Below, piece by piece: positions 9,529-64,000 of a DNA stretch of 64,000 nt. Positions within the stretch are counted from its first letter, which is position 1, and each line of letters starts with the position of its first letter. The notes under the pieces are model-generated. The model did not search any database, was not told the origin of the DNA, and saw only the letters and a list, made by a program, of their open reading frames with translations. The stretch is from Chloropicon primus (Eukaryota). Position numbers and translations under genes: made by a program. Location of the stretch: positions 744,001-808,000 of the forward strand of contig CP060758.1 in assembly GCA_023205875.1 (NCBI GenBank), in the 5' to 3' direction.

Positions 9529-9902
9529 GGCAGCACCTCTCTCGTCCTTTGCCTCTCGCCTTGTTGTCCAATCCTTCTCAGGCTTGGGGGTTTGACCCTC
9601 GTCATTACATTCGCATGAAATGTTTTTGAACCCGAGAGAGAGGTGGGGGAGGAAGGCATTGAGGCATTGAGAGGGTCGAACGAAGGAGGCAGGGCGACAG
9701 GGGGCTCCAAAGGCGTCACCTTTGGCTTGCGTCCCAACTCGTGGAAGTCGGTCCAGAGGTTGTTGTCTTTCGGAAAGGAAAGAGGGAGAGAGCTCGAGGG
9801 AGGAAGGCCAAACCAAGGTTGTTGGAGAAGGTCGAGCACCACCAAAGGGAGCTTGACCGAAGGGCAAGGGAGAAGAAGGTGCACTGCAAGGGCACTGCCA
9901 AG

Positions 9903-58654: not shown

Positions 58655-59536
58655 ATGGCGACCGACGGGGAGGACGCCTTCGCGGCGTTCATGGGCGAAG
58701 TCAACGAGCTGAGCGAGAAGGCGGACAGGAAGGGGGAGACCGCGGAAGAAGCTGAAGCTGCGCCGGCTCCTCCTGCGCAGAAGAAGAGCCCCCCGCCTCC
58801 ACGACCACCACCAGCCAAGGCGAGTGCGCGCACCCCAATGGCCACAGTGGCGAGCGCGCCGAAGCCCGCCACGAAGCGTGAGGGGGGCTCTGCGCCGTAC
58901 TACGTGCAGCCCGGCGTGGGATCTCACCAATCCAGCGGGGCCAAGTCCATCATGGAGAGAGACTATGAGAAGTTGCAGGAGGCTGCGAGGTACAAGTCAG
59001 GCTTGCAGGGGCAGGGCGGCGGGGCAGGAGCGGAGTCCGGGATGGGGAGGACAAGAGAGGAGCTCGTGATGCACCGCACGTCGCCCCAGGGCGGGTGCAT
59101 CTACAGGAAGGACAGGGCGGAGCCGTCTCAGAAGGTGTTCGTACGAGAGATCGGAGGGGAGAAGTGGGTGGACCCGACTCTCGGGGAGTGGCCGGAGAAC
59201 GACTTCAGGCTCTTCGCGGGCGACTTGGGCCCTGAAGTGACGGACGACTTGCTGGCCCAGACCTTCTCCAGGTACAAGTCCTTCAACAAGGCCAAGGTGG
59301 TTAAGGAGAAGAGGACGCAGAAGAGCAGAGGGTTTGGGTTCGTCAGCTTTGCTGATGGCGCGGATTTCGCCAAGGCCCTGCGGGAGATGAACGGCAAGTA
59401 CATCGGGAACAGGCCTTGCAAGCTCAAGAAGTCGGATTGGAAGCAGAGGGGCACCAACCATTCCAAGAGCTTGGCGGCAGGAAGGGGAATACAAAAGAAG
59501 TTCAGGAAAAACAGCAAAAAGCACCTGAACTTTTGA
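58655..59536 (+). CDS. RBM42: RNA-binding protein 42 (RRM)
   Basis: GEKWVDPTLGEWPENDFRLFAGDLGPEVTDD, KSRGFGFVSF, REMNGKYIGNRPCKLKKSDW. Confidence 0.93.
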   Translation: MATDGEDAFAAFMGEVNELSEKADRKGETAEEAEAAPAPPAQKKSPPPPRPPPAKASARTPMATVASAPKPATKREGGSAPYYVQPGVGSHQSSGAKSIMERDYEKLQEAARYKSGLQGQGGGAGAESGMGRTREELVMHRTSPQGGCIYRKDRAEPSQKVFVREIGGEKWVDPTLGEWPENDFRLFAGDLGPEVTDDLLAQTFSRYKSFNKAKVVKEKRTQKSRGFGFVSFADGADFAKALREMNGKYIGNRPCKLKKSDWKQRGTNHSKSLAAGRGIQKKFRKNSKKHLNF

Positions 59537-59653: not shown

Positions 59654-60760
59654 TCAACAGCTTTGGCCCGGTGATCTGCCGCTCAGCAGGTAGAGCGTCT
59701 TTCTCGTTTCGGGCACCGGAATGCACCGAATTCCACGGATCGCACACCTCTTCCCTTGGTACATCAACCTCTGCATCCTTTCGATGGACCTCAACCTCGG
59801 CCTTTTCCTGCTGCTCGGAGCCATGGAGTGAACCAACTCGAGAAGGAGGTCTTGCACCAGCTCGACGGGGTGACGCCTCAGGGCCTCCACGTTCACATAC
59901 AAGTCTCCCGCCGCTGCTGCCTCGGCGTCCGCCGGCCTCACAGCATCCCGACGCATCGAGCTCAGCCGCTCCGAGTGCAGGGGGCACACGGAATTAGCAA
60001 GCAGGGAGTGCACGGTGGCAACGTTCCTGCAAAGGCCGTCGTCTTCTCTGGCCTCGAGGGCGGTCCCAAAGTGGTCCCTTATCGCGTTTCTCGTGTACCC
60101 CAGGTTCACGTTCGAAGGATCCTCGACGTATTCGAGGCCATTGTCCGCGCAATACCCGAGAACCTCGCCCTTGGTCACCCCAAGGAGAGGCCGAACAAGG
60201 TAAACTTCCCCAGAGGAGCCTGGTAATCTACCCTCTCCGGGCTCGAGGGCCTCGACCCTAATCCCGTCCCGGGAGAGGGACAAGGTCGACGCTTCTGGAA
60301 TCCCTCTCAGACCTTGAATGCCGCTCGCCCTCATCGCCCTCATGAGGAACGTCTCGAGCTGGTCGCTCCTCGTGTGCCCCAGCAGGATGGCCTTCGCTCC
60401 AAACTCCAGTCCCACCTCAAGCAGGGTGCGGAGCCTTCCCTCTCTCGCGACTTCCTGCTTGCTCGACTCGAGTGCAACGGACCGCACCACGGGCGACAGG
60501 CCGAGGTCCCTCGCCCTCTCGCTCACAACCAAGGCCTCCTCCCCGCTCCCTCGCCGAAGGTTGTGGTTCACAACGATGCACTGACCACGAAAGCTTCGCC
60601 CTGGGAACCGGGTCTCCAGCCATTTCTGGTACACGTGCGCAAGCGCTGTGCTGTCTGGGCCCCCCGAGAGCGCCACCGCGAAGGCTTTCCCCGCCTGGAC
60701 GCCCCCCAGCCTCCTGGACCACGCATCGAGGGCAGGCCAGGTCCGCTCCGCGAGTCCCAT
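59654..60760 (-). CDS. tilS: tRNA(Ile)-lysidine synthase (organellar); start uncertain
   Basis: PP-loop AVALSGGPDSTAL, VNHNLR, AREGR, LLGHTRSDQLETFLMR, RPLL, EDPSN..YTRNAIR. Confidence 0.85.
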   Translation of the reverse strand: MGLAERTWPALDAWSRRLGGVQAGKAFAVALSGGPDSTALAHVYQKWLETRFPGRSFRGQCIVVNHNLRRGSGEEALVVSERARDLGLSPVVRSVALESSKQEVAREGRLRTLLEVGLEFGAKAILLGHTRSDQLETFLMRAMRASGIQGLRGIPEASTLSLSRDGIRVEALEPGEGRLPGSSGEVYLVRPLLGVTKGEVLGYCADNGLEYVEDPSNVNLGYTRNAIRDHFGTALEAREDDGLCRNVATVHSLLANSVCPLHSERLSSMRRDAVRPADAEAAAAGDLYVNVEALRRHPVELVQDLLLELVHSMAPSSRKRPRLRSIERMQRLMYQGKRCAIRGIRCIPVPETRKTLYLLSGRSPGQSC

Positions 60761-61167: not shown

Positions 61168-61815
61168 CTAGCTCGGGAGCTGGAGTTTCTTGCTCTGCTT
61201 CCAGGCCTGGACGTAGTAGTAGAAGAAGTCCAGGTAGAGCCCTGTCTGAATCAAGCCCGAGATCCAAACGAGCCACGCCGAGTAGCCTGGCTCCGTCGCG
61301 AATCGGTAAACCCAGTTTAAAATATAGAAAGCCCTGTACAACCCAAGCAGGAAAACGTAGTTTCCCGTCAGGTTGTCCACGTTCTTCGTCCTCTGCAGGA
61401 GCACGAGCTGAGGCAGGATCGCCACGGCCTCGAGGTAAATGGAGAACGTCCACAAGATCTCGAAGAGGTTGTACCTCGCGTTGATGAGCAGGGAAAGCAC
61501 GGCGCACGGAGCGACAAGGAACAGGTACCTGAAAGTGTCGTGGTCCCTGTCGTACGTCAGCTTCACATTCCGGTGGCGCCGCATGTACCACACGATCATG
61601 CTAGTCGTTCCTATGTACACCACCTTGAACACCGAGTTGTACAAGGAGTGGAAGTTCCAGAACAGGTCCAGATACCGCGTGATGAAGACTGCCAGGTAAA
61701 GCTCTTGCGTCTTGAGGGATATGCCCGCACAAGACTTGGTCGCATGGATCTTCAGCAGCAGCACGAGGATCGAAAGGAGGTGGAGGATATCCCCCGCGAA
61801 TCTAAACAAGTTCAT
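61168..61815 (-). CDS. ERD2: ER lumen protein-retaining (KDEL/HDEL) receptor
   Basis: MNLFRFAGD, SCAGISLKTQELY, WTFSIYLEAVAILPQL, LGLYRAFYILNW, DFFYYY...KLQLP. Confidence 0.96.
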   Translation of the reverse strand: MNLFRFAGDILHLLSILVLLLKIHATKSCAGISLKTQELYLAVFITRYLDLFWNFHSLYNSVFKVVYIGTTSMIVWYMRRHRNVKLTYDRDHDTFRYLFLVAPCAVLSLLINARYNLFEILWTFSIYLEAVAILPQLVLLQRTKNVDNLTGNYVFLLGLYRAFYILNWVYRFATEPGYSAWLVWISGLIQTGLYLDFFYYYVQAWKQSKKLQLPS

Positions 61816-62260: not shown

Positions 62261-62335
62261 TAGGTTTTTTCTATATGGAAATTTCCTTGCTTGGCTTTGG
62301 ATAAAGCGAATAAGTTTGTGGCTCTCAGCGTTTGG

Positions 62336-62672
62336 TCCTGCTGCTGGTGGTGTTCTCGGGATTACTGTCGAGGGGCACCGTGTTCTTCCGAGACTACTGA
62401 AGGAAGGGTTTGTCCTCCTCCTCCTGCTGCTGCTGGTGCTGCTGGTGGTGTTCTCGGGATTGCTGTCGAGGGGCACCGTGTTCTTCCGAGACTACTGAAG
62501 GAAGGGTTTGTCCTCCTCCTCCTGCTGCTGGTGGTGCTGCTGGTGGTGTTCTCGGGATTGCTGTCGAGGAGCACCGTGTTCTTCCGAGACTACTGAAGGA
62601 AGGGTTTGTCCTCCTCCTCCTCCTACTGCTGGTGGTGGTGGTGGTGGTGTTCTCGGGATTGCTGTCGAGGGG
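62336..62672. repeat. ~98-bp minisatellite, ~3.4 copies, between divergent ERD2 and selenoprotein genes
   Basis: GTTCTCGGGATT recurs at 62352, 62450, 62548 and 62649 (periods 98, 98, 101). Units are nearly identical apart from a CCT/GCT/GGT triplet tract. Confidence 0.92.
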
Positions 62673-62706
62673 ATTTCCCGGGAAGAGGAGGGACTTTGTT
62701 GGAGTT

Positions 62707-63492
62707 ATGATGGCTTCCGCGACGCGGGGGTGTCCTCGGATGATGGCCGTGGGGAGGGCGGGGAGGATTGGGAGGAGAGGGATGGGGGCCCGCAGCGACG
62801 TCGCGAGGGGGCCTCGCCCTCGCCTCCCTCCGTCTGCCTCGTCGTCGTCGTCCCCGGGGAGGAGGGGCCTCGCCTGCTTCGCGGGCGCGAGGGGTTCTAC
62901 GAGCGCGGAAGCCAAGTCCAAGCTCTTCCTTGCCCTCGAGCCCTGCGACGTGTACCGCACGACGGGCGAGAAGGTGAAGCTGACAAGTCTGTGGACCCCG
63001 GACGAGCGAGTGATGGTGGCCTTCGGGAGGCACTTCGGATGACCTTTGTGCTGGGAGCTTGCGGTGCAGCTCAGGAGAGACGTTAAGCCTCGCTTGGACG
63101 AATCCGGCATCAAGCTCCTGATGGTCTCCATCGGATCCGCGGCGTCGGCGTCGGAGTTCGCGAAGGGGACCGAGTTTCCTGCCGAGAACTTGTTCGCAGA
63201 CGAAACGAACAACTGTTATGACGCCCTCTCTTTCTACTCTGGGCTGATGCGAACGTTTTTTGACAAGTCCTCCTTGAAGTCCATGCAGAAGAGGTTCTCC
63301 TCCGATGGCGCCGAGGACTTGAAGGGCGTCATGAAGGACTACAAGATGCTTCCGCCCAAGCAGAACACCCAAACGCTCATCCAGGGAGGGGTGATCTGCT
63401 TTGATGGAACCAGCGACGTCTTCTTTCATAGGGACGAGGGCACTGGGGCGCATGCCGACTTTGACAAGGCGATCGCAGCCCTCGGAGCCTGA
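62707..63492 (+). CDS. SELU: SelU/AhpC-TSA (peroxiredoxin-like 2) selenoprotein with in-frame UGA = Sec at 63040-63042
   Basis: ORFs 62410-63042 and 63046-63492 share one frame. The read-through product has VKLTSLW...VAFGRHFG-U-PLCWE...KLLMVSIG...LFAD...YDAL...QGGVICF. SECIS-like hairpin in the 3' UTR. Confidence 0.88.
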
Positions 63493-63539
63493 GGCCCGGG
63501 TCGGGTCGTCCTCCTCGCCCGTGATGGGTTCCCCTTTCA

Positions 63540-63590
63540 TCTCATGATGCTGCTGGCTGAAACGAGTTTGCCAGCGGTTGAAACCGCATG
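63540..63590 (+). promoter_or_regulatory. Eukaryotic SECIS element
   Basis: ATGA(T) 63544-63548; stem GCTGCTGGC 63549-63557 pairs with GCCAGCGGT 63570-63578; apical AAA 63560-63562; closing TGAA 63579-63582. Confidence 0.8.
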
Positions 63591-64000
63591 TTTTGTGAAG
63601 CAAGGAGAATTATGGCTATCAAGACTGTGGATGAAGTGCACCCCTTTCGACGAGGCTTGGACGACAACCAACCCAAAGCAAAACTTTTGATTTATATATA
63701 TGTACACACACACACACACACACACACAATTGCGCATCTCGGGGTCCCCTCGTCCCCTCGTCCCCTCGTCCCTCCAGACCTTCCTTCTCCCTCTCGAAAC
63801 CCCGAAAGGAAGATCTGGATAAGGAACAGAGCTCTTTGTCTCTCTGCTGATCTGTGGCCTCCATCGGAAGCGTCTTCCAGCCACTGAGGCGGGTTGGCGC
63901 GCGAGGGGCAGCCGCGTTGGACGACGCCGGACCACCTCCCTCCGTTCTCTTTGAAGTATGCGAACAAGCTTGCTCAGTGGGCGAGGGGCACGACGACGAC

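What the first reader, a model, noticed from the sequence alone, without database searches (positions are those of the whole stretch)
62707..63492. Hidden selenoprotein: UGA recoded in a U-x-x-C redox motif of a probably plastid-targeted SelU/AhpC-TSA-like protein
Seen: the ORF track splits one frame at TGA 63040-63042. Coding-like sequence continues on both sides, and the TGA falls where AhpC/TSA-like (PRXL2/SelU) proteins carry the first Cys of RH-x-G-C-x-x-C, giving RHFG-U-PLC. The N-terminus (MMASATRGCPRMMAVGRAGR...SSSS) is R/S/A-rich like a transit peptide. Known: green algae encode selenoproteins, and SelU occurs as Sec or Cys forms. Inference: a 261-aa selenoenzyme probably imported into the plastid, which automated annotation would truncate or split.
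Basis: partly seen in the sequence, partly recalled or inferred. Interest (0 to 1): 0.9.

Follow-up and report, generated by a model that had tools for sequence, protein, structure and literature searches.

The report
Misannotated algal selenoprotein, likely chloroplast
This is a real but ordinary hidden gene of a tiny green alga: its internal UGA "stop" very likely encodes selenocysteine in a redox enzyme that is probably sent to the chloroplast, the public gene model wrongly splices the active site away, and close relatives were already listed as selenoproteins in other algae in 2007.

Summary
Observation confirmed. One frame (62707-63492, +) has a single internal TGA at 63040-42, giving RHFG-U-PLC in an AhpC-TSA/PRXL2 thioredoxin fold. 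DNA runs of two studies and an RNA-type run read the TGA unchanged and unspliced. A paralog and metatranscriptome relatives keep it while flanking bases change. Homologs have Cys at that column (64 of 79 spanning rows) or stop exactly there. A SECIS-type hairpin (AUGA/AA/GA) starts 51 nt after the stop. The public Chloropicon primus model of this gene (QDZ21410.1) removes the whole active site with a 96-nt "intron". That species' annotation lists PSTK, SecS, SPS, eEFSec and SBP2. The family is known: the Chlamydomonas "SelU" (42 of 58 residues identical around U) and the Ostreococcus and Thalassiosira "Trx-fold protein" selenoproteins of Lobanov 2007, related to plant chloroplast AAED1. Plastid targeting is likely but untested, and Sec-type chloroplast GPXs were already predicted in Chlamydomonas. 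Verdict: correct, ordinary, a useful annotation fix. New details are only the Chloropicon member and its likely second Sec paralog.

The parts
62707..63492 (+). Intronless coding sequence, 261 aa with Sec at codon 112 (start could also be M2, M12, M13 or M26)
62707..62913 (+). N-terminal extension of about 69 aa, rich in R/S/A/G and nearly free of acidic residues; predicted organelle (likely plastid) transit peptide
   Evidence: composition; similar extensions in homologs; no targeting predictor run
63040..63042 (+). In-frame TGA read as selenocysteine, first position of U-P-L-C (resolving Cys115 at 63049-63051)
62914..63489 (+). PRXL2/AhpC-TSA_2 thioredoxin-fold domain; U sits at the start of the helix after the first core strand
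   Evidence: pLDDT 96.7; best match human PGFS/PRXL2B
63534..63590 (+). SECIS-type hairpin: AUGAU core at 63544-48, 9-bp helix II (63549-57 with 63570-78), AA(A) at 63560-62, UGAA core at 63579-82
   Evidence: covered by an RNA-type contig 63382-63637
62974..63069 (+). 96-nt stretch that the public gene model treats as an intron; it holds the active site and is not spliced in the RNA-type run

Best explanation
The stretch is one intronless gene whose in-frame UGA is very likely recoded to selenocysteine by the SECIS-type hairpin in its 3' UTR, giving a 261-aa thioredoxin-fold (PRXL2/SelU-like) redox enzyme that is probably imported into the chloroplast. Shown: the continuous frame, the TGA in DNA and RNA-type contigs, its conservation, the hairpin and the fold. 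Inferred: cytosolic Sec insertion through SBP2/eEFSec; cleavage of a transit peptide of about 60 residues; the Sec112 selenolate attacks a hydroperoxide or disulfide, Cys115 resolves it to a selenenylsulfide, and a plastid thioredoxin-type reductant regenerates it. The most likely job is peroxide reduction, by analogy to human PGFS/PRXL2B. The substrate is not known.
For: Reads: DNA contigs X1 (62658-63686) and X5 (62900-63121, another study) and RNA-type contigs X4 (62658-63400, 63382-63637) show 0 differences and no joint over the TGA. A paralog is interrupted at 63056 in DNA run X1 but continuous in X4 and X6, which argues that X4 is spliced RNA (inference). Paralog and metatranscriptome contigs differ at 63039, 63045 and 63046 but not at 63040-42. 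Homologs: of 208 rows, 79 span the column (64 C, 9 D of another subfamily, 3 W, 2 G, 1 R), 6 end exactly before it, 91 start downstream (48 within 9 residues) and 32 could not be classed; rows include cluster mates, so they are not independent. R108, G111 and C115 are invariant and column 112 is Cys in 36 of 37 full-length rows. SECIS. Sec machinery is annotated in C. primus: PSTK, eEFSec, SBP2, SEPSECS, SPS. Published Sec forms of close relatives. Fold. Plastid: plant homologs are named 'AAED1, chloroplastic'; the homologs displayed mostly carry basic, acid-poor extensions (23 shown, chosen by hand); the diatom relative has a signal-like start ending in SSAFAP (the ASAFAP plastid motif is recalled).
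Against: The Rfam SECIS score is below the family threshold (19.2 vs 35) and the fold z-scores are modest (-0.14 to -2.14 over 4 windows). No SECIS could be examined in relatives: none of their laid contigs reached the hairpin. One close relative, P0208, has Cys at this column while 4 members of its cluster stop there, so Cys alleles or assembly artefacts exist. tRNA-Sec was not checked (no genome held; none in the window). Only contigs were laid, and they hide rare splice forms. The start codon is uncertain (public model starts at M26), and R-rich algal extensions can also target mitochondria (own knowledge). The Ostreococcus relatives lack the second Cys (U-F-F-A), so the resolving step is not universal.
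Confidence: 0.9

Rival explanations
1. The public model is right: a 96-nt GT-AG intron (62974-63069) removes the TGA and gives a 204-aa protein without the redox motif.
For: QDZ21410.1/UPR00624.1 match the frame letter for letter apart from this 32-aa gap. The genome was annotated with RNA-seq-trained BRAKER.
Against: The RNA-type contig X4 is continuous over the stretch with 0 differences. The excised part holds the invariant R, G and C residues and the core strand and helix of the fold. The paralog's public model skips its own U column by a different excision. 52 frame-keeping GT..AG excisions are possible here by chance.
Confidence: 0.03
2. The TGA is a true stop or an assembly error, so the gene is a pseudogene or a Cys gene.
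For: Most spanning homologs have Cys. P0208 has Cys.
Against: The TGA is read in runs of three studies and is kept in the paralog and in relatives. The frame downstream is intact with coding-type codon usage. A SECIS-type hairpin is present.
Confidence: 0.02
3. It is a selenoprotein, but targeted to mitochondria, to both organelles, or left in the cytosol (start at M26). This rival concerns the location only.
For: The extension is unusually R/G-rich (20% R, 17% G). There are five possible start codons. No predictor or localisation data were available; the main text of the Chlamydomonas chloroplast atlas preprint does not mention the relative.
Against: Named homologs come from plastid-bearing lineages, and the plant ones are named chloroplastic. 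The diatom and ochrophyte relatives have signal-peptide-like starts.
Confidence: 0.25

Closest known systems
Chlamydomonas reinhardtii 'SelU' (Lobanov et al. 2007, PMC2375036, additional file 2; gene name SELU1 in PMC7230881)
   Same: 42 of 58 residues identical over 87-144 (counted by eye); R-x-F-G-U-x-x-C-W-E-L-A motif with Sec at the same position; N-terminal extension
   Different: RHFG instead of RSFG; the window's gene is an intronless, lineage-specific duplicate
'Thioredoxin-fold protein' selenoproteins of Ostreococcus tauri, O. lucimarinus and Thalassiosira pseudonana (same file)
   Same: RSFG-U motif, QGG and GAHA motifs, N-terminal extensions
   Different: The Ostreococcus forms lack the resolving Cys; ours keeps U-x-x-C
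Land-plant 'thioredoxin-like protein AAED1, chloroplastic' (RHFG-C-x-x-C)
   Same: Same fold and motif frame; transit peptide
   Different: Cys instead of Sec; they fall outside the algal RSFG clade in the midpoint-drawn tree (100/99)
Human PGFS/PRXL2B (SelU3; PDB 9US9, 9USA) and the animal SelU1-3/PRXL2A-C family
   Same: Best sequence and structure match; R-x-F-G-C-x-x-C active site; peroxide-reducing chemistry proposed from docking (PMC12938796, section 3.3)
   Different: 22% identity; Cys form; no transit peptide. Animal SelU1 and the algal true SelU carry RRPG-U
Sec-type GPX1/GPX2 of Chlamydomonas (PMC3095285)
   Same: Selenoproteins described as chloroplast-targeted by prediction
   Different: Different family

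Membership tests
Eukaryotic selenoprotein gene | In-frame UGA present in genome and transcript, not spliced out | tested here: met
   (contigs only; that X4 is RNA is inferred from the spliced paralog)
Eukaryotic selenoprotein gene | UGA aligns with Cys or Sec of homologs, with conservation on both sides | tested here: met
Eukaryotic selenoprotein gene | SECIS element in the 3' UTR (AUGA/AA/GA, helix II) | tested here: met
   Pattern met, 6 of 5000 shuffles; Rfam hit is below the gathering score
Eukaryotic selenoprotein gene | Sec machinery proteins in the genome | tested here: met
   From the published annotation of C. primus, not from my own search: PSTK, eEFSec, SBP2, SEPSECS, SPS
Eukaryotic selenoprotein gene | tRNA-Sec gene | not testable with these tools
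   No genome held; none in the window
Eukaryotic selenoprotein gene | Selenium incorporated into the protein | not testable with these tools
   Needs 75Se labelling or mass spectrometry
SelU/PRXL2 family (PF13911) | AhpC-TSA_2 domain and thioredoxin fold with (U/C)xxC at the start of the helix | tested here: met
SelU1 subtype (RRPG-U-x-x-C) | RRPG before U/C | tested here: not met
   The window has RHFG; compare the SelU rows
Algal RSFG-U 'SelU/Trx-fold' clade | Falls in the algal RSFG clade and closely matches the Chlamydomonas Sec form | tested here: met
   Tree support 100/99 (the published sequences were not in the tree); 42 of 58 identity
Plastid-imported protein | Cleavable chloroplast transit peptide and chloroplast location | tested here: inconclusive
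   Composition and homolog evidence only

The most novel reading that the evidence does not exclude
The algal RSFG-U clade is a dedicated chloroplast selenoenzyme that reduces lipid hydroperoxides or endoperoxides, which land plants kept only as Cys-type AAED1 relatives. Chloropicophyceae duplicated it into two Sec enzymes, and the window's intronless copy, with its changed C-terminal loop (YKMLPP for WKPW-x-PP), took a new substrate. It would be an easy handle for the first biochemical test of selenium use inside a chloroplast.
Probability: 0.2. Interest if true: 0.5.

Novelty: new member of a known kind. Interest (0 to 1): 0.22.

Why it matters
It corrects a public gene model that deletes the active site, and shows that the selenoproteome of this picoalgal class is mis-annotated (two paralogs broken in C. 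primus, one truncated in C. roscoffensis). I found no paper describing Chloropicon selenoproteins in two searches or in the main text of the genome paper. The biology is not new: the family is a known algal selenoprotein, and chloroplast-targeted selenoproteins were already predicted. What stays open, as far as my searches reach, is a direct demonstration of the location and substrate of this family.

Tried and rejected
No whole genome is held, so the Sec machinery came from a paper's supplement. The metagenome locus scan used Cys-coded patterns and returned only 3 distant Cys (TGC) loci, L001-L003, so SECIS conservation in relatives stayed untested. The second read-laying added one contig over the TGA (X5); X9, X12 and X13 did not cover it, and none reached the SECIS core. 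Small-share runs are no evidence of habitat. The protein atlas gave no result. The paper that defined SelU (Castellano 2004) is not held; the supplement of PMC7539508 could not be read and may list further algal orthologs; bioRxiv supplements of the chloroplast atlas are closed and may hold a localisation. I could not confirm that Cre06.g278096, the best Chlamydomonas hit of both paralogs, is SELU1. I found no support for a recalled apicoplast selenoprotein in the one review checked, so it is not used. Rejected: AhpC_a and AhpC_b of Jiang 2020 as the family (their motifs and prokaryote-only homologs differ); the REV1 label given to this gene in the genome supplement; the second pattern hit at 9615-9671 (4 Watson-Crick pairs; no gene tied to it at a glance); long opposite-strand ORFs over the gene as shadows of a GC-rich coding frame (not tested further).

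Full report
Observation. The frame 62707-63492 on the + strand gives 261 residues with one internal TGA, codon 112 at 63040-63042, in the context RHFG-U-PLC. Standard ORF calling splits it into 111 and 123 aa. Codon usage, trained on four neighbouring ORFs, is coding-like in this frame both before and after the TGA and drops in the 3' UTR. Pfam AhpC-TSA covers residues 84-177 across the U (25.5 bits, cut-off 26) and AhpC-TSA_2 covers 121-244 (59.5 bits, cut-off 27). The first 60 residues are rich in R, G, A and S/T and hold 2% acidic residues.

Is the TGA real and unspliced? DNA run X1, which may be the source of the window, has one contig over 62658-63686 with no difference. Run X4 (another study, RNA by guess) has contigs over 62658-63400 and 63382-63637, also without difference or joint. 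DNA run X5 (a third study) covers 62900-63121 unchanged. A paralog matches only from 63056 in X1, with unrelated intron-like letters before it, but runs through 63033-63102 in X4 and X6. I infer that X4 and X6 are spliced RNA, so the window's gene is seen unspliced in RNA. The paralog and three metatranscriptome contigs of X11 differ at 63039, 63045 and 63046, but no difference is listed at 63040-42 (34 pieces and 15 loose ends were not shown). Only contigs were laid, so a rare spliced form is not excluded.

Homologs. I aligned the 209 proteins stored at that point. Of 208 other rows, 79 span the U column: 64 Cys, 9 Asp (a separate subfamily), 3 Trp, 2 Gly, 1 Arg. Six end exactly before it (…RSFG or …RHFG), 91 begin downstream (48 within residues 113-121) and 32 could not be classed. 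Rows include cluster mates and are not independent. A seventh protein ending at RSFG, from the paralog's cluster, appeared later. This is the pattern expected when gene callers meet a conserved UGA. Against it, P0208 has Cys where 4 of its cluster mates stop. In 37 full-length rows R108, G111 and C115 are invariant and column 112 is Cys in 36.

SECIS. Rfam SECIS_1 matches 63534-63590 over the full model, but at 19.2 bits against a gathering score of 35. The hairpin has AUGAU, a 9-bp helix, AAA and UGAA. My pattern scan found 2 hits on both strands of the window; this one is the better (9 of 9 pairs, -15.2 kcal/mol). Six of 5000 dinucleotide shuffles of the 300 nt after the stop gave any hit, and none reached -12. 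It lies in the part covered by X4. Overall fold z-scores are modest, and I could not examine SECIS in relatives.

Annotation and machinery. The public Chloropicon primus protein QDZ21410.1/UPR00624.1 ('hypothetical') is identical to this frame from M26 on, apart from a 32-aa gap. The gap equals a 96-nt GT..AG excision at 62974-63069 that removes the whole active site; 52 such frame-keeping excisions are possible. The paralog QDZ19913.1 is mis-modelled at the same motif, and a C. roscoffensis relative is annotated as a 123-aa piece behind the UGA column. The supplements of the C. primus genome paper (PMC6731263; main text searched, supplements searched by term, one file cut) list PSTK, eEFSec, SBP2, SEPSECS and selenophosphate synthetase. 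tRNA-Sec was not checked.

Fold and placement. AlphaFold2 on a 58-row alignment gave pLDDT 96.7, with U at the start of the long helix after the first core strand (U modelled as C). The best structural matches are human PGFS/PRXL2B (E 9e-9, 22% identity), then BCP/PrxQ- and ResA-type thioredoxin folds; phmmer agrees. A tree of 56 hand-picked rows, midpoint-drawn, places the gene in a clade of 10 close relatives (100/100), next to the paralog-type rows (13 rows, 100/99), inside an algal RSFG clade (100/99) that is separate from plant AAED1 RHFG clades.

Mechanism. Shown: a continuous gene, a conserved in-frame UGA at the catalytic position, a SECIS-type hairpin, a thioredoxin fold. Inferred from established knowledge of eukaryotic Sec insertion and of CxxC enzymes: SBP2 and eEFSec recode the UGA in the cytosol; the preprotein is probably imported into the chloroplast; Sec112 attacks a peroxide or disulfide, Cys115 resolves it, and a thioredoxin-type system re-reduces it. 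Peroxide reduction is my best guess, by analogy to PGFS, where docking places the substrate peroxide at the first Cys (PMC12938796, abstract and section 3.3 read). Confidence: Sec recoding about 0.93, plastid location about 0.7, peroxide substrate about 0.5.

What is known. Additional file 2 of Lobanov et al. 2007 (PMC2375036; passages, one section, and parts 3-4 of that file read) shows a C. reinhardtii 'SelU' with Sec in RSFG-U-FFC, identical to this protein at 42 of 58 positions around U (counted by eye). It also shows 'Trx-fold protein' selenoproteins of O. tauri, O. lucimarinus and T. pseudonana with RSFG-U, aligned to Arabidopsis and rice RHFG-C proteins. Jiang et al. 2020 (PMC7539508, passages) call SELENOU one of the four most widespread algal selenoproteins. 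Pitsch et al. 2010 (PMC3095285, passages; author name recalled) describe two Sec-type GPXs of Chlamydomonas as chloroplast-targeted. Passages of PMC3473315 and PMC3316567 define SelU1-3. Three earlier notes of this scan report similar diatom genes; I did not check them.

Verdict. It is a new member of a known algal selenoprotein family, with a broken public model and a likely Sec paralog. The plastid location is plausible, untested and has precedent. Interest 0.22.

Noticed in passing
runs X1/X4/X6 laid on window 63033-63102; proteins P0010, P0238, P0239: A second, paralogous gene in the same organism (RSFG motif, intron just behind the motif) also appears to carry TGA at this column; its public model QDZ19913.1 skips the motif.
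   Followed up: partly
window 62333-62672: Three tandem copies of a 98-nt unit (93-96% alike) end just upstream of the start codon; the contigs break there. Possibly 5' UTR or promoter repeats.
   Followed up: no
PMC2375036 additional file 2: The Chlamydomonas 'SelU' (RSFG-U) looks closer to that paper's 'Trx-fold protein' group than to the RRPG-U SelU of Ostreococcus and Thalassiosira, so one clade seems to carry two names. The Ostreococcus forms lack the resolving Cys.
   Followed up: partly
L001 510-1007, L002 77-574, L003 1501-1998: Distant Cys (TGC) homologs with the same RHFGCPLC motif, 33-36% identical; a similar protein (P0061) falls with the plant-type RHFG clade.
   Followed up: partly
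window 61168-61815 (-), 59654-60760 (-), 58655-59536 (+): Neighbours are ordinary single-ORF genes: ER lumen receptor (PF00810), PP-loop ATPase (PF01171) and an RRM protein (PF00076).
   Followed up: no
window 9615-9671 (+): Weak second SECIS-pattern hit (8 of 9 paired, only 4 Watson-Crick); probably chance.
   Followed up: partly
proteins P0089, P0123, P0132, P0141 and others: A related subfamily has Asp and Ser at the two redox positions (D-x-x-S), so it is probably not a thiol redox enzyme.
   Followed up: no
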